From an uncultured Methanomicrobiales archaeon (GTDB lineage: Archaea > Halobacteriota > Methanomicrobia > Methanomicrobiales > Methanospirillaceae): a stretch of 22,482 nucleotides of DNA. Shown in pieces: positions 1-22,482 of this stretch. How positions within the stretch are numbered: the first letter of the stretch is position 1; every line of letters begins with the position of its first letter. The position numbers were made by a program, and so were the translations under genes. A model generated the notes under the pieces. The model was not told where the DNA came from. It was given only the letters and a program-made list of their open reading frames with translations, and did no database searches. The DNA lies in NCBI GenBank assembly GCA_963758915.1, contig CAVWXH010000004.1, positions 1 through 22,482 on the forward strand, given 5' to 3'.

Positions 1-115
1 CTGGCGGGATATCATGCATGGATGATTGAAACCCTCCTCTGCAGGGATGCCGGTGAACAGCCCCGGCCGGATTAAATCAATGGGCATATGAACCTGAATT
101 GCTGAATCAATTCAT

Positions 116-694
116 ATGAGATCCATTATTCTGACATTAGCCATCCTTGCACTGGTCCTTGCTATCGCCGGGGCCGGGTGTACTACGACGAATCCCCCGG
201 CCACCACACCAGCCGCAACACCAACGCTCTCTCCGACTGCCATCCCGACATCCACCATGACGGTGAAGCCCACGGCAAACCTTTCTGCCGATGAGCAGCG
301 GTTGTTCGCATTTGTCTCCGAGGGGGTCGTATACAGCCGTGAACACGGGAAGCAGGCCTCGCTCGCAGAATTCAATAACCCGAACGGCTCGTTCGTCCGG
401 GGAGACCTGTACATATTCGCAGCCGATTACAACGGGACATCCCTCGCATCCATTGCCCTGCCCCAGCGGGTGAATACGTCTTTCTACAACGATGTCGATG
501 TGACCGGCCAGTATTACATGCGGAACAAGATCAACATCTCACGGAGCGGCGGCGGGTTTATCGTCATCCATTTCCCGAATCCCGCCCATAACTTAACGCC
601 AGAACCGAAGCTCTGCTACGTGCACGATGTTGACGGGACCTACTGGATTGGGGCAGGCATGTATAACCAGTCAAACGTGATGGCCCGACAGTGA
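116..694 (+). CDS. Secreted/lipoprotein-like single Cache-domain protein (sCache_2-like)
   Basis: Hydrophobic N-terminus ending AGAGC, then a Thr/Pro linker. The rest is a Cache-like domain (EHGKQASLAEFNNPNGSFVRGDLYIFA...GGGF...PNP...KLCYV..VDGTYWIGAGMY) typical of Methanomicrobiales. Confidence 0.85.
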   Translation: MRSIILTLAILALVLAIAGAGCTTTNPPATTPAATPTLSPTAIPTSTMTVKPTANLSADEQRLFAFVSEGVVYSREHGKQASLAEFNNPNGSFVRGDLYIFAADYNGTSLASIALPQRVNTSFYNDVDVTGQYYMRNKINISRSGGGFIVIHFPNPAHNLTPEPKLCYVHDVDGTYWIGAGMYNQSNVMARQ

Positions 695-752
695 GACCTG
701 CTAACTGATGCTCCGCCTTGAGACCTGGAAGAATTGCCTGGAAGCAGGAAGA

Positions 753-777
753 CCGGCAGGTGTGGCCATCTGCCCGG
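753..777 (+). terminator. GC-rich hairpin downstream of the Cache gene
   Basis: CCGGCAGGTG-tggc-CATCTGCCCGG is an imperfect inverted repeat ~60 nt after the stop codon. Confidence 0.3.
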
Positions 778-949
778 CATTTCCCCTGCCACAAGTAAAC
801 CATCGGGGAGGAATATACAATATCCGGCAATTTAAGCCATTTTTTTTAAAAAATACCAGAATGCACCCGGGTAACATAGCAACAGGATAGTAACCGATGT
901 GAAAACCCTCCGCCCTGACAAAAAAGTCGATCAGGGAGGATTTCCAGAG

Positions 950-1200
950 GGACTTGTATTGCCCTGGGGTCCGGGGAAATGTTCGGGAAGATACCGGTTA
1001 AGGTCTCGCTGTTTTATTAAAAAGACAATACGATGGTGGATTATATTCCGGATGCCGAGTCGGTTAATGCTTTTACTGAGTGGATGAGCAGATTGATCAA
1101 GTCCATCCATGCTGAGCAGTTTGTGGCCTGTCCCGGACAGAACTGCAGATATTGTGAGGTTCCCTTTGTGAGGCACAGGAGAGGGATTTGGAAGTGACAG
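950..1200 (+). pseudogene. Remnant C-terminus of a PD-(D/E)XK nuclease domain (UvrD/AddAB/RecB-type helicase-nuclease, Cas4-like Cys tail)
   Basis: Manual translation from ATG 979 gives MFGKIPVKVSLFY*KDNTMVDYIPDAESVNAFTEWMSRLIKSIHAEQFVACPGQNCRYCE. It is preceded by out-of-frame DLYC (951) and followed by out-of-frame SLCEAQER (1161). In-frame TAA at 1018-1020. Confidence 0.6.
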
Positions 1201-1254
1201 GGCTGTCTTGTGATGGACTAGTCGCTTCATTACTTTTTTACTATGCGACTATTA

Positions 1255-1346
1255 CAACAACCCGTTCCAAATAATTCCATAACGTACGGGGCTGTTCTGG
1301 ATTAGCGTTTGTTTATCCCCCATAGCCCCGGCGTTTCGGGTTGTTG
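1255..1346. repeat. Nested inverted repeat / long stem-loop
   Basis: CAACAACCCG (1255-1264) pairs perfectly with CGGGTTGTTG (1337-1346) over 10 bp. Inner stem CGGGGCT (1287-1293) / AGCCCCG (1324-1330). Confidence 0.6.
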
Positions 1347-1454
1347 CACGGGTGTTCTGTAAGTAAACATGAACTCATACTTCGACGAGCCACCGGGCGT
1401 AGCTTCAGCCGCCCCAGCCGTTGATAATCCGCCGGATATCCCGGCTGCCACACA

Positions 1455-2201
1455 TCATCGCGCCATCAGCGCGAACACACCCCATCCAAGGTATTCACGC
1501 GTGTACGTTACGTAGCGTTTTGGTTCCAGCGTCAGTCTGGCTCTCACATCCTTCGCGAAGTCGTCGTCAGGATTCGCTTCGAGCCACCGGCGCATGGTGA
1601 GCCACTTGGCCGCTTCGTACCTGTCCCAGCCTTTCTGGTCAGCCAGGACCATTTCCACGACGTCGTAGTTGAGGTCGCCGAACGAGGCGATCAGTTCTGG
1701 CAGCATGAGAAAGTCGGAGATAGAACTGGCATCGCATCCCCTGGCAACGTCTTCTGTCTGGGGTAACCGCTGCCAGTATGGCTCGCCGATGAGGATGATC
1801 CCTCCGGAGCAAAGACTCTTCGCCAGAAGCTCAATGGTGCCGGCGACTCCCCCACCGATCCACGTGGCACCGAGACAGGCTGCCACACCCACCTTTTCGT
1901 CGGCGACGTAGCCGGCAGCGTCGCCGTGGATAAACTTGACCCGATCGGCGACTCCGAGTTCTTCAGCCCGGAGTCTCGCCTGCCCGGTGAACAACTGACT
2001 CATGTCGATGCCGACGCCGGTGATCCCGTGATCGCGTGCCCATGTGCACAGCATCTCGCCCGAACCGCTGCCGAGGTCGAGCACCCGGGTCCCTGGTTTC
2101 AGGCGCAACGCTGCACCGAGAGAGGCGAGATTTTCTGGTGTGAACGGGTTATGGATGCGGTGAGCACTTTCGGTAATGTTGAAGATACGTGGAATGTCCA
2201 A
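1455..2201 (-). CDS. yjhP: Class I SAM-dependent methyltransferase, YjhP family
   Basis: 248 aa, TTG start, motif I VLDLGSGSG. MDIPRIF..ES.HRIHNPFT and GWDRYEAAKWLTMRRWLEANPDDDFA match E. coli YjhP as I recall it. Confidence 0.9.
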   Translation of the reverse strand: MDIPRIFNITESAHRIHNPFTPENLASLGAALRLKPGTRVLDLGSGSGEMLCTWARDHGITGVGIDMSQLFTGQARLRAEELGVADRVKFIHGDAAGYVADEKVGVAACLGATWIGGGVAGTIELLAKSLCSGGIILIGEPYWQRLPQTEDVARGCDASSISDFLMLPELIASFGDLNYDVVEMVLADQKGWDRYEAAKWLTMRRWLEANPDDDFAKDVRARLTLEPKRYVTYTREYLGWGVFALMAR

Positions 2202-2502
2202 TTGTACAAACTCCTTTTACTAAATTGTGTAATAACCGGAATATATCCTTCGTGACGGTAGCAGATAACGGTTTTAAGTATCAGACCACAGGCTCACCGT
2301 TTTGAGTTGTTGCTTTAGCGTAAACCGGCGCGAGCAATTGGCCCGGGAAATTTTCTGCTACAACCGGAACCCGGCCAAAATTTTTTCCGGTTCATACCGG
2401 CCCCGTCGTCAATTTCCATAATTAAAGGCACTGACAAGCGGATGGAGCATGAAAAAAAGTAGGTATATCTCAATCACGCCCTATTATCTATAACGGTGAA
2501 TC

Positions 2503-3131
2503 ATGCGCACACTCTTTCTCTATATCCTCGATACCATGGCCGACTGGGAGCCGGGCCATGTTCTGGCCGACTCCGTTCCGGACGGTACCTGAAAGATCCG
2601 ACACTCAGGTATTCGGTTGTACTTTGCGGTAATACTTTAGACCCCGTCACCACCATGGGTGGGCTGTATTTGACACCCGAAGTCCTCATAACAGATATCT
2701 GCCCCGTCCCCGGCGACGTGCTCGTACTGCCGGGAGCAGATACCTGGCTTGATCCGGCACAGGCGCCCGCTCTCCGGGTGGCAGGCCGGTTGCTTGATGA
2801 AGGAGTACTTGTCGCTGCGATCTGCGGTGCGACGCTTGGCCTCGCAAACGCCGGCCTGCTGGACAAACGCCCGCACACCAGCAACGATCCTGCTGCCCTG
2901 AAAATGTTCTGCCCGAACTACCAGGGTGAGAATCATTATGTGAACGAACCCGCAGTGACTGACGGCAATCTCATCACCGCAAGTGGACTTGCACCCGCAG
3001 AGTTCGCGTACCATGTATTCCGGAGCCTGGACGTCATGGCACCTGCAACGCTCGAGGCCTGGCACGGGCTTTTCACCACCCGGAAGCCCGAATATTTCTA
3101 TGCCCTGATGGGGTCCCTGCCTCGCCGGTAG
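2503..3131 (+). CDS. DJ-1/PfpI family (type 1 glutamine amidotransferase-like) protein; one frameshift at ~2570
   Basis: GGTGA RBS precedes ATG 2503 (MRTLFLYILDTMADWEPGHVLA). One missing base at ~2570 joins this to LRSGRYLKDP...LVLPG...AAICGAT (catalytic Cys)...HTSN...VTDGNLITASG. Confidence 0.85.
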
Positions 3132-3170
3132 GGATTCATGGGCATGCGTGGAGGGCAAACCTCCGTCCAC

Positions 3171-3350
3171 TCAGTGATTGACGGACACGGAACCGGATTG
3201 GTACCGGACCCGTTGATTTACAAACACGGGCGAATCTCCCTCCGGAACACCAGGATAGTCTACCCTCCACTGGCTCACATATTCTTTAAACGCGATGACG
3301 GGCACATAACGGGGGATATCGGTCTTGAATTTTACATTGACCGGGAGGAA
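3171..3350 (-). pseudogene. Internal fragment of a tyrosine recombinase/integrase
   Basis: Stop-to-stop frame with no credible start: FLPVNVKFKTDIPRYVPVIAFKEYVSQWRVDYPGVPEGDSPVFVNQ. It resembles the KT..PRY...YL.QW..DYP..P.G...VF segment of methanogen XerC/D-like integrases (catalytic Lys hairpin). Confidence 0.6.
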
Positions 3351-3354
3351 CTAA

Positions 3355-3825
3355 TTATTTCTTTTTCCTCTGTACCGGCTTAGGTTCTGCCCTCATTTCA
3401 CAACATACTGCGTTCATCTGCCTGCAGCAGTCCTGGATCCCTTCGGAGTCAGCCTCGAATCTGACCACATTATCCCTTACAATCCCGATCTTTCCGGCAT
3501 CCTCAAACGCTTTCGGGTCTGCTGACAGGTAAACAAAGTTCCATTGGTCCTTTTCAATCTGATTCTTTATCATCGATTCAATCTGCGAGAGGTTGAATTC
3601 CGTGCTTGCATTTTCCTCCCCGTCGGTAAGGATGGCGACAATGACGTTATCCGGTATTTTTCTCTGGTCTTCGGTCTTACTTATCCGGCTTTTCACTTCG
3701 TTGATGGTCCGGCCGATTGCATTTGCTGCCCCCATAAGAAGGCGGCAATTGCCCCGGGGGTCTTCGTCCAAAGGCGGGACCCCTCCCCGCATGGGGATTT
3801 GCAGGCCCTGTTAAAAAGAGTGAAT
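3355..3825 (-). pseudogene. N-terminally truncated vWA-domain protein
   Basis: AIGRTI...VIVAILTDGEENASTEF...DQWNFVYLSA is the C-terminal half of a small vWA family. The N-terminal DxSxS MIDAS motif is missing and the upstream part (TLFN..., VPPLDEDPRG) is degenerate. Confidence 0.7.
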
Positions 3826-3829
3826 TGGG

Positions 3830-4994
3830 TTATCCCGGAAGGAGTGCCTTGCCCGACTGGTATTGGGAGCTCTTCGAGAATTGGCTGATGATGCCACTTG
3901 CCATTGATGTCTCGGAGTAGGAGAAATCAGATGCCTTCGACGGGGCGGCCGGAAGGAGATAATATCCGGATACTGGGGTTTCGAAGGGGATTTCTACCGA
4001 TACATTAGCAACGTTTTCACCCCGTGCTTCCTGGATATGTGCCTTGATGTAGGATGACACAGATCCAAGTGCCGGAGCTGTTGCACCATCGTTCATCGTA
4101 ATTCCCTTTACGTTGATTGCGTAGTTCTGGACAACAGGCATTGTCGCGTCCGTGCCCACAAACCTGTTATTCGCTGAAGTTACAACAGAACCGGTATTCA
4201 GTTGGTACGCAGTTACCCTGCTGGACGATATTACAATAAGCGGGTATGATATCAACCGGCTGATAGGAGAATGGACAAAGCATTCTGTCAGATGCAGACG
4301 TTGTATTACCTGCACCATCAATCAGGATATTTTCCGATCCGACCACCATCCCCCCTTCAGATGCTGTAATGAATTGCATGTTTGTCTTTGCATCGAGGTT
4401 ACTCTGGCCAATAACCTTGTTTCCAGTGTTGGTATTCATTGTTGCAAGGAAGGTGGTTTGTCCCCCGGTTGCCACAACATTCTTATCGTAGGTTGTCGTG
4501 TACCGGACTTCGCCAGGGTTGATTACGCCGGAATGAAGCCCTCCCTGGGTAGTCGCTACGGTGTAACTACCCAGATGGCCTGCAATAAAATCACTCCAGG
4601 TAACTCCCGGGTAACCCACAACCTCCTGGTTCAACATTGAATCTGGTATAGAAAACTGGGCATAAAGGCCTGGACCTGGCAGGATGGGATAGATCTGAAC
4701 CACCGAACCGCCGTTCGCAAGGACCTGGTTAGCAAGATCATCATGGAAATCGCTTAGCGAAACAAATCCAGGTGCTGACGTAACCGTTGTCATCCCTCCG
4801 GTACTCGTGGTAGTAGTCCAGGCAATCGCGTCGGTTTCAGTTATGGCCCCGACAACATTTGCCGAGGTTACCGTTGAAATTCCCTGGGTTTCGGGAGTTG
4901 CCGGAATGACCTGGTCTGCGAAGACGGTACCTGCGAATGCGACAAGGCATACTAATGTTATCAGGGCGAGAAAACTTGTTCTTCGGGACTTTAT
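3830..4994 (-). CDS. Secreted Methanomicrobiales cell-envelope protein, probable homolog of the Methanospirillum major sheath protein; ATA at the expected start, frameshift at ~4213
   Basis: GGAGGT RBS lies 7 nt before ATA (4994). A signal peptide ends VFA-D, followed by IPATPETQGISTVT, GEVRYTTTY, ENILIDGAG and LCPF...PAYCNIVQQG. Removing one base at ~4213 joins TAYQLNTGSV...HIQEARG...YSETSMASG...YQSG, giving ~387 aa. Confidence 0.6.
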
Positions 4995-5035
4995 AGTAAA
5001 TACCTCCTTTGGCTGGCCCGGGGCTCTCGAGGACG

Positions 5036-5095
5036 TCACCTGATGCCTGGCATGGAGAAGCCCGGAGTGCACGGATTAAAATTTCTCACCTGATG
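5036..5095 (-). promoter_or_regulatory. BRE-TATA promoter of the sheath-like gene flanked by a 10-bp direct repeat
   Basis: Minus strand GAGAAA-TTTTAATC at ~5088-5075. TCACCTGATG (+) occurs at both 5036-5045 and 5086-5095. Confidence 0.45.
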
Positions 5096-5269
5096 GGGAT
5101 ATCTAATGTTCGGTTTATGTTTTTAAGAAGGTCCAACCGGCCAGGGAGCATCGCGACGAAGTCTTGGCCGTCAGTATCACCCCGGAGCATTCTGAAAAAC
5201 CAGGGCATGATGTGAAGACGAGGAGGCCCGCAGTGAAGCGAAGCGGAATGAGGACACGAGGAGACAAAC

Positions 5270-5446
5270 ATTGCTGCCCGAACTCGAATGTGCGGCAATC
5301 AATGGTCCTCCTGCCCTCCGCTCCATGATTTCGCCGGGCGAAATTCTTTCGCGAAGCCGAAAGGGAGCGGACAGGAGGCACCGGTGGTGTGGCCCCGCCC
5401 TTTAGGCTTGGTAGGGCGGGGAGTGGGGGTGGGTCGGTCGCAGGGG
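5270..5446. other. Highly structured GC-rich non-coding element (hairpin, three-way junction, hairpin/G-tracts)
   Basis: Stems at 5270-5277/5292-5299; 5307-5324/5364-5378 enclosing 5328-5344 and 5346-5363; and 5393-5401/5413-5421. G-runs at 5414-5446. Confidence 0.6.
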
Positions 5447-5593
5447 CGATTGGATATGCGCTTCCGTGCATCAGATGAATAAATAATGAGAAAAATCTCT
5501 ATTCGACATGATATTTATAAGGAAAATATTTCGAAGAAAATATCGCTAAATTATGCTCCAATTCGCCATCGGATTGGAACACAGTCTCTTTTA

Positions 5594-5666
5594 AGCCTCA
5601 GCCGTGATTTGAACACGGGACCTGCTGATTACAAGTCAGCCGCTCTGCCAACTAAGCCACTGAGGC
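5594..5666 (-). tRNA. trnT: tRNA-Thr(UGU)
   Basis: GCCTCAG/CTGAGGC acceptor stem, D-arm, GCTGA-CT TGT AA-TCAGC anticodon arm, CCGTG-TTCAAAT-CACGG T-arm. No intron, CCA not encoded. Confidence 0.97.
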
Positions 5667-15134: not shown

Positions 15135-15355
15135 CCTCCAGCCGATACCGGATAGTGAGGTTGTTCGTTGTACTATCACAAAAATATACCCCGGGATTAA
15201 GTTGAAAATGCTAAAAGGGGTTCCGGCTCTTTCACCACGATTCCACAAGCCCTGAAAACAAAAAGAGTTCCCCTCAATTGCGTTTCTTTATCCTTTAAAT
15301 TTTTACGAGTCAGAGAGTACAGCATGAATCTGTCCTGTGTGAGGTTGTTCCCGTC

Positions 15356-16063
15356 ATGAATTGCGAACAACATGTTTCGTGGATCAGCAGGGTTAAAGAA
15401 TCGTTCCGCTGCTCCTTCGGTGAGATTGTCTTTGGCATGTCGGACGGTACCGTCTCGATTTTCGGCCTCGTGGCCGGTATGCTGGCGGGTGCCCAGTCCG
15501 GTGATGTTATCCTCCTTGCCGGTGCAACCGCAGCAATCGCGGCAACAGTCTCCATGATGGCGGGTGTCTTCATGGACCTTGAGTCAGAAAAGGATGCGGC
15601 CCGCGTGGAAGCGGAACGGCGGGCGGCAGAGATCCATCGTGATCCCGATGTTGCTGTGAAGAAACTGATGGGTGATCTGCAGGGCTCCGGCCTGAGTCAG
15701 ACAAGTCTTGATGCGATCCAGGTTGATCTCCAGACGAATCCCCTCACCATCCAGAAGTTTGAGGATGCGGTATCAGCCGAGGAGGAGACGCCGGCAGAGA
15801 AAGCCCCGCCCTATGTCCATGCATGCTGGATGGGGATTGCTGACTTCATCGCTGCGATGACCCCGGTTATCCCGTTTGCGTTCCTGCCAGTTGAAGAGGC
15901 GAAGTATGTCTGCATTGCGGGGACTGCGGTGCTCCTGCTCCTGCTGGGTATCGGGCGGGCACGGCTTGGCCAGCGCCCGTTATTCCGGACGGTGCTCGAG
16001 ACCATGGCAATTGCAACCGCTGCAGGTATTGCCGGTGTGATCTTCGCCCTGATTATCACCTGA
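15356..16063 (+). CDS. VIT1/CCC1-family Fe/Mn transporter
   Basis: EIVFGMSDG.V...GLVAG, SMMAG, Glu-rich cytoplasmic segment, P.IPF and five TM helices. Confidence 0.9.
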   Translation: MNCEQHVSWISRVKESFRCSFGEIVFGMSDGTVSIFGLVAGMLAGAQSGDVILLAGATAAIAATVSMMAGVFMDLESEKDAARVEAERRAAEIHRDPDVAVKKLMGDLQGSGLSQTSLDAIQVDLQTNPLTIQKFEDAVSAEEETPAEKAPPYVHACWMGIADFIAAMTPVIPFAFLPVEEAKYVCIAGTAVLLLLLGIGRARLGQRPLFRTVLETMAIATAAGIAGVIFALIIT

Positions 16064-16263
16064 CGAGGAAGGGGACAAAACCGGCTTCCTTGTGCCCTAT
16101 ATCGAAACACTTTTTTCAACCGGAGATACGGGAATTAATTTCAAGCGTCGTGGGACAACGGATATACAGGATAGTATGTATTCGAAAGCGTCAAATCTGA
16201 TTTTTTCCACCCGGAATCACGGAATGTACTGTTGATTACGAAAAAAAATGAACGGTAAGAATA

Positions 16264-16455
16264 TTATTCATCAAGCGGTTTGAAAACACCTTTTTTTGCC
16301 TTGAGGATTTTGCATTCAGGACAGCGCCAGGTGTCAGGAACATCTTTCCATGCTGTCCCAGGAGTTATCCCATTTTTTGGGTCTCCCTTTATCGGATCAT
16401 AAATATAATGGCATTCGAGACACACATACCGAATCATTTTCACCAACTCTGCCAT
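16264..16455 (-). CDS. Rubredoxin
   Basis: YVCLECHYIYDP..GDP..GI.PGT.W..VPD.W.CPEC. Confidence 0.9.
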   Translation of the reverse strand: MAELVKMIRYVCLECHYIYDPIKGDPKNGITPGTAWKDVPDTWRCPECKILKAKKGVFKPLDE

Positions 16456-16686
16456 GGTTCATTCAACTCTGTTCAATCTCATTAATTGGTTGATCATTTC
16501 AACGTGTATTCTTAAGAATTCTTTTCACGAGGCAATTCTTAATTCTCCTCTCGTACTCTCCACCGTCCGGATGGATAGCGGGTACCTGAAATGTATCGCT
16601 CCCGAAAATTGTTAGAATTCCAGGATTTCAATGAAAAATGCGACAATTCGCAGTAACCAGGCGGGGAATAAAAAAGGATGAGGGGG

Positions 16687-17409
16687 TTATCGGATCAGGT
16701 ATGTCACCGTGACGGTTGCCGTCACGGTCACGTCACCCGGCTGGATCGGTGTTGGCGCTGCCCCGGATGCCGAATCACTCCTTGCATAGTTCTGGAACAG
16801 CACCGGGGTGTACCCCTGGCCGACATCAACCGTCTTTACCGCGGTAATGTTGACACCGAGTGCGGTGGCGACAGTCTGTGCATCGGCGGCCGCCCTGGCA
16901 GTTGCTTCTTTCAGCGCCTCGGTCCTGAGCACCTGTGCCTGTTCATCCGAGAGGAGGAACTGGATGGAGTTCGCCTGGTTAATCCCGTTCGCAACACCGA
17001 TGTCAATAACCTCACCGGTCCGGCTTACATCGTGGAGGGTGACCGTCAGGGTATTCGTTACGCGATAGGCCTTGATCTTCTGCCCGATAGGGAATTTTGA
17101 ATCATCGTATACCGGGTAGATGTTGTAACCGGTCGTCTTGAGGGCATCTTTCGGGATCCCGGCAGCCTTCAGTGCATCCATAACTTTTGTCATTATGGCA
17201 GCATTTTCCGCCTGGGCTGCTTTTACATCAATATTCTCTGTTTCGACAGCGAGTGAAATCTGGGCACGGTCCGGGGTACCGATAACAGAGCCGGTCCCTG
17301 AAGCTGTAATTGTCCGATCATCGCTTGTATCAGCCGCCGAAACAGTTCCAATCGCCAGAAGGGCAACGAGAACCACGAGGGCCGTCAGAATTGCTATTCT
17401 ATTCTTCAT
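16687..17409 (-). CDS. SIMPL-domain (DUF541) secreted protein
   Basis: Signal peptide, TI...G.G.V...PD.A.I...VET, ID.....G.N....I.F, and I.PG...V.A.V.V.Y. Confidence 0.92.
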   Translation of the reverse strand: MKNRIAILTALVVLVALLAIGTVSAADTSDDRTITASGTGSVIGTPDRAQISLAVETENIDVKAAQAENAAIMTKVMDALKAAGIPKDALKTTGYNIYPVYDDSKFPIGQKIKAYRVTNTLTVTLHDVSRTGEVIDIGVANGINQANSIQFLLSDEQAQVLRTEALKEATARAAADAQTVATALGVNITAVKTVDVGQGYTPVLFQNYARSDSASGAAPTPIQPGDVTVTATVTVTYLIR

Positions 17410-17636
17410 GATTGATCAGGACACTGTTTCGCGGCGTTCTGTTTAATCTTTCCCTTGACTGCGAACAGAATGGCAGTCATGATGAGATCGACTGATACCT
17501 GGTATATCCGGGTGAATCACGATATTATTGCCCTGATTGCTTCCGTACATCTTTTTTTTAGAGACCTGGTATAGTAATAAGATGATTATAGGAGTAGGAC
17601 CATACGTTCCGGTGCTGACGAAGTGGTGAAAAAGAT

Positions 17637-17907
17637 ATGATTACGCAGGATATTGTACAGAAACTTTGGGATGCGGCGGGTTATGGGAATGTTGCGGTAT
17701 GGGAGGACGACACCATGACGGTTGTTCCGCCGGATTATCCCGGTGAAACCGAAGGTAAAAAACCGCTTGTCATCCTCAAGCCCATCGCACTCGTGAACCG
17801 GTTTGAGACTGCTTGGTTTCGCCCTCAATGACGAAGAATTGCTGGGGAACATCGAAGAAACAATCCGTGCTGCCGGCGGACAGGTGACAAGAGGCCCGAA
17901 GTCATAG
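17637..17907 (+). CDS. Small hypothetical protein; frameshift at ~17810
   Basis: GGTGA RBS. Removing one base extends the ORF with LGFALNDEELLGNIEETIRAAGGQVTRGPKS to TAG 17907. Confidence 0.65.
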
Positions 17908-18270
17908 CCATTTTTATAGCAGTTTCCCGCTTAGCACCGGGTTACTTCAGGACCCGGCCAACCAGGAAAAACGATGCATAAAACAAAAACAGAGGCCTCT
18001 TTTTTTCACGGAACACGCACAATTCCGGACCTGAAACATTTTTGCACGGGGCCTGCAGCGGGGACGGTGATCCGGGGGAGTGAGGTCCTCCGGGGCATCG
18101 GTCCTGTACCGATAATCAACCTTTTAGAATGTGTTGATCTGCCATCAGGCTCCGAAAAATTGTCAGCCGCCTTCAGGAAAGGTCCCGGTTGTACATCAAT
18201 CAGCTGTGCCCCGATAACACCGCGAAGACCCCCGCTGATTTTCGGGAAGTGTCCTGACCAGCAAGTATAT

Positions 18271-18290
18271 AGTTAGGTAAAGCCTGAGCT
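18271..18290. promoter_or_regulatory. Candidate MarR operator (imperfect palindrome)
   Basis: AGTTAGG-taaag-CCTGAGCT just upstream of marR. The related half-site AGTCAGGTAA recurs at 18717-18726 before lon. Confidence 0.35.
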
Positions 18291-18306
18291 AACGAAAGAT
18301 CGACGT

Positions 18307-18726
18307 ATGACAGAACAGGGAGAGGATCTGTGTGAAGCATTTGAAGGCCTTATCCGGCTCAAAAACGACTGTTCCTGCAGTATCTTCTCTGAATGCGGGT
18401 TGTCGGATATAACGGTCAAACAGATCGCATACCTGAAAGTCATCGATCAACATGGGGAAATCACCTTCAGCAGGCTTGCCGAGATCACCCGGAACTCGAA
18501 ACCTACCATCACAGAGATGATCAACAGGTTTGTCCGGATGGAATGCGTCTTCCGCGAACGATGCCCCGCTGATGGCAGGATCCTGTACATCCGCCTGACC
18601 GAAAAGGGACAGAAGATCGCAAAAGCTGAACAAGCCGCTATGCAGCGGGTGATTGAACGGATGATGAATTCACTGGATGAACATGAGCTGGATCTCCTGG
18701 TTGAGATCCTGCAGAAAGTCAGGTAA
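18307..18726 (+). CDS. MarR-family transcriptional regulator (6 Cys)
   Basis: ITVKQIAYL..I......TFS.LA......KPTIT.MI.R...DGR...I.LTEKG. Confidence 0.92.
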   Translation: MTEQGEDLCEAFEGLIRLKNDCSCSIFSECGLSDITVKQIAYLKVIDQHGEITFSRLAEITRNSKPTITEMINRFVRMECVFRERCPADGRILYIRLTEKGQKIAKAEQAAMQRVIERMMNSLDEHELDLLVEILQKVR

Positions 18727-18783
18727 TATTTTTTGTCCTGATCTTAATTTTTGGTAAATTCGAACTATATGAACGAGGAAACA

Positions 18784-21169
18784 ATGCAACAGGCACAAAC
18801 TGATGACACACAGGAAAAAATTGTCATACCGCTCTTTGAGATCGTCGTCTACCCAAACAACCGGACAAAATTCCAGGTTGACCAGGTCACCGGAGACCTC
18901 CTGCTGGCCGAAATGAAAGATACAGGGGCTGCATATGCAGTCGGGCTTACCGTAAAAAGTGGCACAAGGCCTTCAGAGCTGACCGGGGAGTCCCTGTATC
19001 AGACCGGAAACCGATTTAAGATCTCGCACGTGCAGCCTGCCAACGACGGGTACCTGATCTGTGCGGAAGTTATGCAGAGGGTAAGAGTGGTAACCCTGGC
19101 CGAAAAGGACGGGCGGCTCAGTGCCGTATATACACCGCTCCCGGATATCCAGGACCTTGGAGATGACCTTCAGGCCCGGATCCTCGAAGACATTAAAACA
19201 ACCATCCACGAGATCAGCAGCAGGTTCCCGGGCTCCGAACAGTTCACCGGGCCACTCGACCGGATGGACTCTATCGAGCAGATCATGGGATTCGTTATGC
19301 CCTACCTCCCGGTTGACCTTGCCGAAAAACAGGCACTTCTTGAGCTTGACTCTGTCCTGCTGCGGTACACCACGTTCCTTGAGCTCCTCAATAAAACAAG
19401 AGATGACATCAACATCCGGATAGAGATGGCAAAGAAAGTCTCAGACCGGGTGAGTAAGTCCAACCGGGAAGCAATGCTCCGGGAGCAGCTGAAGGTGATC
19501 CAGGAGGAGCTGAATGAAAGCGAAGGAGATACAGGGGATAGCGGGTACCGGGAACGGGTTGAAAATTCAAAGATGCCGGAAGACGTGCGGAAAAAAGCAC
19601 TGGCAGAGGTGAAGAAACTCGAGACCGGGGGGCCCCACAACCATGAAGGTTCAGTGATCCGTAACTATCTCGACCTCCTGCTCGACCTTCCCTGGGTGAC
19701 GGAAGAGAAGAAGAGCATCGATATCGAAGAAGCCCGTAAGGTACTTGAAAGCCACCATAACGGCCTTGAAAAGGTAAAGGAACGTATCATCCAGCACCTT
19801 GCAGTAATGAAACTGAAGCAGGAGAAGCAGGGCTCGATCCTCCTCTTTGCAGGCCCGCCCGGAACAGGAAAGACGAGCCTTGGGAAGAGCATTGCCGGGG
19901 CCCTCGGACGGAAATATATCAGGATCAGCCTCGGGGGTGTCAGGGACGAGGCCGAGATCAGGGGACACCGGAGGACCTATGTCGGCGCACTGCCGGGCAG
20001 GATTATCCAGGGGATAAAAAAGGCCGGTACGAAAAACCCGGTATTTATCCTCGATGAGATCGACAAGCTGGCAATGTCCTACGCCGGGGACCCGGCCAGT
20101 GCCCTCCTCGAAGTCCTCGACCCCGAGCAGAACAACACCTTCTCGGACCATTATCTTGAGGTCGCCTACGATCTTTCAGACGTGCTGTTCATCGCAACGG
20201 CTAACTCCCTCGCGACAATCCCCGCACCACTCCTTGACCGGATGGAGTTGATCGAGATCTCGGGCTATACGAAAAACGAGAAATTCGCAATAGCAAAGGA
20301 CCACCTGCTGCCCGAAACGTTGAAGGAGCATGGTCTCGATGCAGACCAGCTCCAGGTGGAGGACGAGGCACTGAAGGTAATTATTGAGAAATACACCCGT
20401 GAAGCAGGTGTCCGGTGGCTGAAAAAGCAGCTGGCGAAGATTGCACGGCACGTATCCGAAAAGATTGTTACCGGGAAGGCTGAACTGCCATTCGTGGTAA
20501 AAACAGATATGCTCCCGGGGATCCTCGGGAAAGAACCGGTACGGCAGGAAGTTGCCCGGAAGGAACCGGTCCCCGGTGTTGTTACCGGCCTTGCATGGAC
20601 CCCTGTCGGCGGGGAGATACTCTTCATCGAAGGTACGTTCATGCCCGGGACCGGCAGACTCACCCTCACCGGTCAGCTGGGGGACGTAATGAAGGAGTCG
20701 GCAACGATATCGTTGAGCCTCATCCGGTCACGGCTTGCAGGAACGGAGAACGGTTTCGACTTCATCACGCGGGACATCCATATCCACGTGCCATCAGGAG
20801 TCTACCCCGAAGGACGGTCCTTCGGCAGGTGTGACCCTCTTTACGGCGCTCGCGTCCCTGATCACCGGGAAGACCGTTGACCCCCATGTAGCGATGACCG
20901 GGGAGATAACCCTCAGCGGCGGAGTGTTACCCGTAGGGGGAATCAAGGAAAAGGTCCTCGCTGCTCACAGGGCGGGAATTACCACCGTGATCCTGCCGGA
21001 GGAAAACGAACGGGACCTCGAGGATGTACCTGAAGATGTCCGGAATGAACTTACCTTCATTACCGTTAAAACCATCGAGGACGTGCTCAAAGAGGCGCTG
21101 GGGATTGAACTGCCACAGACCGTTGTGCAGTATTCCGGGAACAGTTTTGTCCCGGTGCAGAATATCTGA
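18784..21169 (+). CDS. lon: ATP-dependent protease La, soluble bacterial-type LonA; frameshift at ~20801 (alternative start 18769)
   Basis: Lon N-domain, Walker [21 protein letters not shown] and Walker B ILDEIDK. The repaired [15 protein letters not shown] (Ser) and GGIKEK (Lys) form the catalytic dyad. No TM insertion. Confidence 0.96.
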
Positions 21170-21344
21170 AGGTCAGGGTATCCGCAAAGATACGGGGAGT
21201 TGTGGGCTTTGAAAAGCCCATTCTCATTTCTTTTATTAAAGTCTTGTACCCTGATAAACCTGAAACGAAGGTGTTTGAGTCATGGTTCATTTAACAACCA
21301 GAACGGCAGAAAAAACAATACTCTCACCGGATAATTAGATCCCT

Positions 21345-22482
21345 GTGATCTCCCTCGTTGAACCGGAACGGGTCCGGGTACTCAATACTGCTCCCGTACG
21401 CACCGGGGACTATGTGTTGTACTGGATGCAGTCCTCGCACCGGACAGAACAAAATCCGGCACTTGTGTATGCAATCGAACGGGCTGACCATGCAAACCTC
21501 CCGCTGATCGTTTATTTCGGGCTCTGGCAGACCTACCCGGAGGCGAACCTCCGTCATTTCCAGTTCATGCTGGAAGGGCTTGTGGACGTCGCACATTCCC
21601 TGGAATCCCTGGGGATCAGGTTTGTGATGAGGATTGAAACCCCGGACGAGGGAGTCCTTTCCTTCGCGAAAAACGCCGCCTTAGTAATAGTAGACCGCGG
21701 ATACCTCCGGCAGCAGCAGGTATGGTACCATGATGTTGCCGGACGGTGCACGTGCCCTCTCGTGCAGGTTGAGGGAAACGTTGTCGTGCCGGTAGAGGTG
21801 GCATCCCAGAAAGAGGAATACTCCGCCGCCACGTTCCGCCGTAAGGTCACCTACCATGTGGACAGGTTCCTGCACCATGTTGAAACGGACAGACCGGAGC
21901 GTTCTTCTCTTGCCCTTGACATTCCCACGCTTGCCGGGGAAACACCCGGTGCACTACTCTCACAACTCACCATCGACCGTTCGGTCCCTCCATCGGCTCT
22001 ATACAAAGGTGGGACAACGGAAGCGAACCGGAGGTTTCTGCAATTTCTCGACAAACGACTCGGGGGATATGGTGATAACCGCAATGATCCCGGTGGTGAC
22101 GGGGGTTCGGACATGAGCCCCTACCTCCATTTTGGGCAGGTATCGCCGGTTACCCTCGCAGTCCTCGCACAGGAACAGGGCGGGAACGGTACCCGGCCTT
22201 TCTCGAACAACTGATTGTGCGCCGGGAGCTTGCCATGAACTTTGTCCGTTACAATGACCACTACGATTCATTCTCATCACTTCCTGCATGGGCACAGAAA
22301 ACGCTGGCGCTTCACCAGGCAGATCTGCGGGAATATAGGTATTCTCTCGATGAACTGGAGCATGCTGCAACCCATGACCCGTACTGGAATGCAGCCCAGC
22401 AGGAGATGGTGAAAACCGGTAAAATGCAGGGCTACATGCGGATGTACTGGGGTAAGAAGGTCCTCGAGTGGAGCAGAACCCC
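21345..22482 (+). CDS. phrB: Class II CPD photolyase; frameshift at ~22196; runs off the window end
   Basis: VLYWM....R...N.AL, RNDP and SPYLHFGQ.S. After repair: [15 protein letters not shown]...[31 protein letters not shown]. Confidence 0.95.

What the first reader, a model, noticed from the sequence alone, without database searches (positions are those of the whole stretch)
3830..4994. Probable homolog of the archaeal amyloid sheath protein inside a tRNA-linked variable region
Seen: a secreted ~387-aa (repaired) Thr/Ser/Val-rich, beta-strand-patterned protein with ATPETQG, LIDGAG, LCPF..PAYCN and HIQEARG motifs, and a distinct ~70-aa segment (GFVSLSDFHDD...HLGSY) that looks like a variable insert. 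Recalled with moderate certainty: these motifs match the Methanospirillum hungatei major sheath protein family, which polymerises into cross-beta hoops. Inference: a mobile or paralogous sheath subunit with a swappable surface domain, i.e. a possible envelope-variation system (virus evasion or partner adhesion).
Basis: partly seen in the sequence, partly recalled or inferred. Interest (0 to 1): 0.75.

Follow-up and report, generated by a model that had tools for sequence, protein, structure and literature searches.

The report
Accessory capped archaeal sheath-protein gene
This gene is a true relative of the known protein that builds the tough tube around some methane-making archaea, one of about twenty copies or fragments in this genome and likely a minor subunit; its variable insert is the already described outer "cap", which close relatives appear to have exchanged by recombination, although no exchange is seen for this copy.

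Summary
Homology is confirmed. The intact natural allele aligns end to end with M. hungatei MspA/SH (WP_011449234.1): 22% identity, E 1e-20, profile probability 99.8%. Both cysteines are kept, and the predicted strands come in the same order. The "insert" is the published cap domain (profile probability 94% against Methanospirillum caps). The +1 frameshift near 4212 is absent from four other records and is probably an assembly error. The genome holds 20 sheath loci or fragments, 4 of them unbroken. Multi-copy sheath genes with variable caps were published in 2024, and this scan found such arrays before, in this genome and others. "Mobile" is not supported: no integrase on the contig, no att repeat, no viral match, and tRNA adjacency at chance level (p 0.17). 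The region is variable, though. No relative carries this gene beside the tRNA, and its 3' flank is a 10-bp microhomology join. Family-wide, some pairs show cap/core mosaicism (core pS 0.69, cap pS 0.13). This copy is a lone long branch with no donor cap and a probable ATA start. Verdict: new member of a known family, modest interest.

The parts
3830..4994 (-). Capped sheath (SH/MspA-family) gene, 387 codons in the intact allele, split here by a +1 frameshift
5002..5009 (-). Shine-Dalgarno-like AAGGAGGT, 7 bases before the ATA
   Evidence: sequence
4992..4994 (-). Probable non-canonical ATA start, 26 codons before the mature N-terminus. Paralogs of this genus mostly start 26 codons up, with TTG, ATG or GTG (inferred, not shown)
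   Evidence: of 35 genes scored, 21 TTG, 10 ATG, 1 GTG, 1 ATA (this gene, scored on L134), 2 none found
4917..4994 (-). Predicted signal peptide (26 aa, hydrophobic helix), aligned with the MspA signal peptide
   Evidence: SignalP not available
4542..4802 (-).
4233..4277 (-). Two conserved cysteines (C266, C280 of P0123), equal to MspA C257 and C271
   Evidence: residue roles from PMC10593813 and PMC6242892 passages
4210..4213 (-). Frameshift: one extra base and one substitution against L134; probably an assembly error
3938..4021 (-). Second variable segment (28 aa, predicted beta-hairpin) after strand 10; much shorter in MspA; inferred from strand order to lie on the cap side
3713..3722 (.). 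10-bp sequence shared by the sheath gene's 3' flank and the neighbouring gene; junction of a probable deletion or rearrangement
3355..3722 (-). 3' fragment of a gene that is ~209 aa and intact in three relatives (vWA-like by a recalled motif; no Pfam match)
5145..5449 (.). Two short dispersed repeats (5145-5280 and 5302-5449), each with matches at 4-5 other places in the genome (71-99% identity)
   Evidence: no Rfam match at E 0.1
5594..5666 (-). tRNA-Thr(TGT), the genome's only copy; borders a region whose gene content differs in each relative examined

Best explanation
This is a divergent, capped member of the known archaeal sheath (SH/MspA) family, one of 20 loci or fragments in this genome, and it likely encodes a minor accessory subunit that would be secreted and built into the beta-ring sheath with its cap facing outward. 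By analogy with M. hungatei, the signal peptide is removed, the twelve-strand core joins edge to edge into rings, and the two cysteines link neighbouring rings (inferred from published work, not tested). The family evolves by duplication, decay and occasional cap/core recombination. This copy sits in a plastic region beside tRNA-Thr that is rich in surface-protein genes. Its cap drifts faster than its core, but it has not been swapped recently. The break in the window is most likely an assembly error (my estimate: about 3 in 4).
For: Homology: 22% identity over 381 columns, E 1e-20; probability 99.8%, E 1e-28; target is WP_011449234.1 / Mhun_2271. Fold: AlphaFold models of P0123 (pLDDT 82) and MspA (pLDDT 82) give the same order of long core strands, with the cap after strand 2 and the cysteine linker after strand 6. 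Cap: profile of 80 related caps against 20 Methanospirillum-type caps, probability 94%, E 1.4e-7; reversed control E 0.4. Copy number: 20 loci or fragments, 4 full-length single ORFs; matches in 12 of 12 same-genus genomes. Intact alleles: P0004, P0123, P0124, P0125. Purifying selection on the core: the diverged allele differs at 5 of 246 core positions against 12 events in 87 cap positions (Fisher p 1e-4). Lone lineage: nearest non-allelic core 64% (median 89% among 152 capped proteins), nearest cap 41%. Minor role is inferred from the probable ATA start, from the absence of the gene at this site in relatives, and from the published pattern that only one or two paralogs are highly transcribed (PMC11576556).
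Against: No expression, proteomic or microscopy data exist here, so a sheath in this organism and the minor role are both inferred. Sheath loci are broken far more often (16 of 20) than other genes tested (5 of 32), so real decay is common in this family, and this break or the ATA codon could be decay too. No 3D superposition with MspA was possible because no model is in the PDB library (only EM maps were deposited, PMC10593813).
Confidence: 0.68

Rival explanations
1. The copy is a decaying pseudogene: ATA is a dead start codon and the frameshift is a real mutation in this strain.
For: 16 of 20 family loci in this assembly are broken or partial, against 5 of 32 other genes. It is the only ATA among 35 starts scored. 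The 3' neighbour is itself truncated.
Against: Four other records hold an open frame. The core is 98% conserved in an allele whose cap is 85-87% identical. Isoleucine at the start position is shared by that diverged allele (P0125). Lon and photolyase are also split on this contig but longer or whole on the sister copy C11 (open frames 806 vs 710 and 430 vs 291 codons).
Confidence: 0.17
2. It is part of an envelope-variation system: caps are exchanged among paralogs or strains under selection by viruses or partners, and this gene is a donor or an expressed variant.
For: Family-level mosaics: L016/L014 core pS 0.69, cap pS 0.13; L011 and this genome's C3:404602 core pS 0.64, cap pS 0.17. MspA orthologs in the Methanospirillum-type genus have core pS 0.31-0.53 with near-unalignable caps, while the second capped paralog in the same genomes has cap pS about equal to core pS. 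Protein pairs exist with cores 95-97% identical and caps 17-31% identical. Viruses of sheathed archaea are known (PMC11576556).
Against: This gene has no donor or recipient among 174 capped proteins (best non-allelic cap 41%), and its 64% core identity to the rest makes recombination unlikely. No recombinase or integrase was recognised in the window. In the alignable non-identical pairs for which DNA was held, cap pN stayed below pS, which fits relaxed constraint. The mosaics are between species, not switching within a lineage.
Confidence: 0.12
3. The gene rides on a mobile element or provirus integrated at tRNA-Thr, like the viral SH-like genes.
For: It lies just 3' of the tRNA, next to two dispersed repeats. 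None of 9 informative relatives has it there. Its 3' flank is a rearranged junction.
Against: No repeat of even the last 12 bases of the tRNA anywhere in the genome. The 4 phage-integrase matches are on C3, C5 and C18, none on this contig. No relative in the viral contig scan (0 confirmed of 509 candidate stretches) or in 50,697 phage records. Published viral SH-like proteins are 159-288 aa and mostly capless (PMC11576556).
Confidence: 0.03

Closest known systems
MspA / SH of Methanospirillum hungatei JF-1 (WP_011449234.1, Mhun_2271; PMC6242892, PMC10593813)
   Same: Collinear over the whole length; signal peptide, twelve-strand core, cap at the same position with a homologous fold, both cysteines.
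   Different: 22% identity; shorter cap (87 vs 109 aa); extra predicted hairpin after strand 10; probable ATA start; not shown to be the main subunit.
Multi-copy SH proteins of Methanomicrobiales (Medvedeva, Borrel and Gribaldo 2024, PMC11576556)
   Same: 3-31 copies per genome, clustered, variable caps, some near tRNA genes, most weakly transcribed, proposed mixed rings.
   Different: That paper describes one cluster per genome and a beta-sheet cap for Methanolinea. Here the copies lie on 9 contigs and the cap is of the Methanospirillum alpha/beta type. Its main text does not contain the words recombination, conversion, selection or swap.
Viral SH-like proteins (PMC11576556)
   Same: Secreted, SH-type core.
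   Different: This protein is longer, capped and chromosomal, with no viral context found.

Membership tests
Archaeal SH/MspA sheath proteins | Sequence homology to WP_011449234.1 | tested here: met
Archaeal SH/MspA sheath proteins | N-terminal signal peptide | tested here: met
   Hydrophobic helix aligned with the MspA signal peptide; no dedicated predictor was available
Archaeal SH/MspA sheath proteins | Core of two six-stranded antiparallel sheets joined by beta-arches | tested here: met
   Same order and length of core strands in both predicted models; judged from secondary structure, no 3D superposition
Archaeal SH/MspA sheath proteins | Methanospirillum-type cap between strands 2 and 3 | tested here: met
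   probability 94%, E 1.4e-7, reversed control E 0.4
Archaeal SH/MspA sheath proteins | Linker and sheet cysteines (C257, C271) | tested here: met
   C266 and C280 align; both columns invariant in the 36-sequence alignment
Archaeal SH/MspA sheath proteins | Match to the published SH profile HMMs | not tested
   The profiles are in the supplement of PMC11576556 but could not be loaded into the tools
Archaeal SH/MspA sheath proteins | Polymerises into cross-beta rings and is present in the sheath | not testable with these tools
tRNA-integrated mobile element | Integrase gene and duplicated tRNA 3' end | tested here: not met
   the assembly is in 18 contigs and 94% complete
Viral SH-like egress proteins | 159-288 aa, mostly capless, in a viral genome | tested here: not met
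   387 aa, capped
Cassette-type surface variation system | Donor copies sharing near-identical flanks or caps with this gene | tested here: not met
   Nearest non-allelic core 64%, cap 41%; best DNA identity to paralogs 67-71%
Cassette-type surface variation system | Cap/core recombination elsewhere in the family | tested here: met
   shown between species, not as switching within a lineage
Cassette-type surface variation system | Diversifying selection on this cap (dN/dS above 1) | tested here: inconclusive
   Only protein-level allele differences were available; DNA of the diverged allele was not held

The most novel reading that the evidence does not exclude
Sheathed methanogens diversify their outer surface by exchanging sheath caps through recombination, even between species. 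The cap of the main subunit is replaced repeatedly under virus pressure while the amyloid core stays fixed, and lone, weakly translated copies such as this one add rare caps to mixed rings.
Probability: 0.3. Interest if true: 0.55.

Novelty: new member of a known kind. Interest (0 to 1): 0.25.

Why it matters
The locus itself adds little: it extends a published family to one more uncultured methanogen. The by-product is more useful. Synonymous-site contrasts indicate that caps and cores have separate histories, and that the main subunit's cap turns over while a second capped paralog evolves by descent. That makes the cap a concrete candidate for the virus receptor of sheathed methanogens and suggests that the sheath core tolerates interchangeable surface domains. 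Both can be tested in cultured Methanospirillum strains.

Tried and rejected
No library names this family. Sequence searches of the PDB, Pfam and NCBIfam gave nothing, and MspA itself also matches nothing in Pfam. Foldseek gave no match at E 0.001 in the PDB or in viral structures. The wide structural search gave best Z 7.1, general beta-sheet likeness only. The order-wide sample gave only two Methanospirillum-type genomes, so the MspA protein was reached through a genus search. The GTG at 5072 was considered as the start and rejected: it would put 26 non-signal residues ahead of the signal peptide, and the Shine-Dalgarno-like motif fits the ATA. A special tRNA link was rejected: 2 of 13 sites in this genome (p 0.17), and 5 of 86 fetched loci held a tRNA, three of them overlapping or related tRNA-Thr(CGT) sites. 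The Fisher test printed used wrong counts; one search has the corrected one. The bacterial promoter and terminator scan is not suited to archaea and was not used. The search of cluster representatives had not finished when I stopped. One paper on archaeal initiation had no AUA passage, so the strength of an ATA start in archaea is unsupported here.

Full report
The observation. The window is the whole of contig C4 of a 2.38-Mb, 18-contig assembly. Its closest named homologs come from Methanoregulaceae and Methanomicrobiales assemblies. The gene runs on the minus strand from 4994 to 3830 in two frames. A protein search returned 133 homologs, one of them a 99% identical unbroken form. Its cluster holds four intact records, P0004, P0123, P0124 and P0125. 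Contig L134 matches the coding region except for one extra base and one substitution at 4210-4213 and one later substitution. Contigs of three runs cross this place with at least one gap each, though the tool did not show where the gaps lie. One of these may be the same record as P0123. Lon and photolyase are also split on C4 but have longer open frames on the 97.8% identical copy in C11. An assembly error is therefore the likelier cause. Decay is not excluded, because 16 of 20 family loci are broken against 5 of 32 other genes.

Identity. No library names the family, so I fetched the reference itself. The 377-aa ORF L088:5901-7034 is listed as WP_011449234.1 / Mhun_2271. Its C257, C271, D43, K363, T86, S144 and N157 agree with the residues named in the structure papers (passages of PMC10593813 and PMC6242892). 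P0123 aligns with it end to end: 22% identity, E 1e-20, profile probability 99.8%. Both cysteines align. AlphaFold models of the two proteins, each with pLDDT 82, show the same series of long core strands, with an alpha/beta insert after strand 2 and the cysteine linker after strand 6. Fold searches found nothing clear, as expected, since only EM maps were deposited.

The insert. It spans 87 residues and is absent from 24 of 87 non-allelic homologs in alignment A1. A profile of related caps matches Methanospirillum-type caps with probability 94% (E 1.4e-7; reversed control E 0.4). It is thus the cap that Wang et al. placed on the sheath exterior (PMC10593813, parts 1-2 of 6 and passages read). 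The diverged allele differs by 12 events in 87 cap positions and 5 in 246 core positions (p 1e-4). A second variable segment, residues 351-378, is a predicted hairpin that should lie on the same edge as the cap (inferred from strand order).

Is the cap swapped? For the family, probably yes. Among 174 capped proteins, some pairs have cores 95-97% identical and caps 17-31% identical, and a few have caps closer than their cores. Where DNA was held, L016/L014 give core pS 0.69 and cap pS 0.13, and L011 with this genome's C3:404602 gives 0.64 and 0.17. MspA orthologs show the reverse: core pS 0.31-0.53, caps near saturation. The second capped paralog from the same genomes has cap pS about equal to core pS, with pN well below pS. 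Saturated values rest on poor alignments, and no formal recombination test was run. For this gene the answer is no. It is a long branch, its nearest non-allelic core is 64% identical and its nearest cap 41%. Its faster cap fits relaxed constraint as well as it fits selection.

Context. The genome has 20 family loci or fragments on 9 contigs, 4 of them full-length ORFs. Homologs occur in 12 of 12 same-genus genomes, in 25 of 151 genomes of the order, nearly all in one family, and in 25 of 25 genomes of the Methanospirillum-type genus. I fetched the tRNA-Thr flank from 11 relatives; 9 had enough sequence. None carries this gene there, and the neighbouring genes differ from one relative to the next, often PKD, beta-propeller or PEGA surface proteins. 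G012 has a distant paralog about 3 kb away; G006 and G004 have sheath arrays about 24 and 57 kb away. The G006 stretch is 86-95% similar to C3:400-441 kb of this genome, and window 1-3722 is a 96-98% copy of C3:424-430 kb. So the gene probably stands at the tRNA end of a plastic region that also holds the main array, and C4 is likely an alternative haplotype. At 3713-3722 a 10-bp sequence is shared by the gene's flank and a neighbouring gene that is whole in three relatives. Other assemblies of the sheath gene stop matching the window at 3713. This suggests a local deletion, not an insertion. There is no att repeat, no integrase on the contig, and no viral or phage relative. tRNA adjacency is at chance level.

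Mechanism. Shown: family membership, cap homology, conserved cysteines, many paralogs, intact alleles, faster cap. Inferred from published work: export by the signal peptide, edge-to-edge assembly into beta-rings, disulfide links between rings, cap outward. Inferred here: a minor role. The grounds are a probable ATA start behind a strong Shine-Dalgarno-like motif (1 of 35 starts scored), absence at this site in other species, and the published 100:13 transcript ratio of the two main M. hungatei paralogs with the rest very low (PMC11576556).

Prior knowledge. Medvedeva et al. 2024 (PMC11576556; parts 1-4 of 6, two parts of one supplement, and supplement searches read) already report 3-31 copies per Methanomicrobiales genome, variable caps, clusters, tRNA neighbours, mixed rings, possible roles with partners and viruses, and viral copies. 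Christensen et al. 2018 (passages) report the paralogs. The 2024 main text lacks the words recombination, conversion, selection and swap. Three further searches of the open library found no other paper on cap exchange; subscription journals and unread supplements were not covered. Earlier notes of this scan describe the C3 array and mosaic caps. They were a lead for the mosaic test, not evidence.

Verdict. A real, correctly recalled homolog, and a new member of a known kind. The locus is ordinary. The family-level cap exchange is a modest, testable addition. Interest 0.25.

Noticed in passing
window 1-3722 and 15229-22482: Both flanks are 96-98% copies of C3:424272-429792 and C11:1-7253, so C4 looks like an alternative-haplotype contig; Lon and photolyase are split here but have longer frames in C11.
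   Followed up: yes
window 5145-5280 and 5302-5449: Two short dispersed repeat families, found across the genus, one with a 99% copy on C10; MITE-like by appearance only, no Rfam match.
   Followed up: partly
L088:5901-7034 with L083, L084, L085, L086, L070: MspA orthologs keep about 90% core identity while their caps are only 19-34% identical; the second capped paralog (L060-L069) has clock-like caps. The main subunit's cap seems to turn over specifically.
   Followed up: partly
L016:1459-2706 and L014:1447-2673: Sheath genes of two species share a cap at 85-98% DNA identity while their cores are synonymously near saturation; candidate cross-species cap transfer.
   Followed up: partly
sheath genes in fetched loci and G000: 21 of 35 scored starts are TTG, which gene callers often miss, so many database entries begin inside the signal peptide.
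   Followed up: partly
G000 C7:21163-22277 and L096:1291-2733: Other sheath genes also follow a tRNA closely (tRNA-Leu at 167 bases; tRNA-Thr(CGT) at about 300 bases, followed by a resolvase gene in L096).
   Followed up: partly
G000 C3:406300-406526, 407460-407728, 419960-420420: An abundant 200-450-base dispersed repeat family with matches on most contigs, beside the main sheath array.
   Followed up: no
L149: A metagenome contig whose match to the query is much shorter than the query span, possibly a capless or deleted form; not examined.
   Followed up: no
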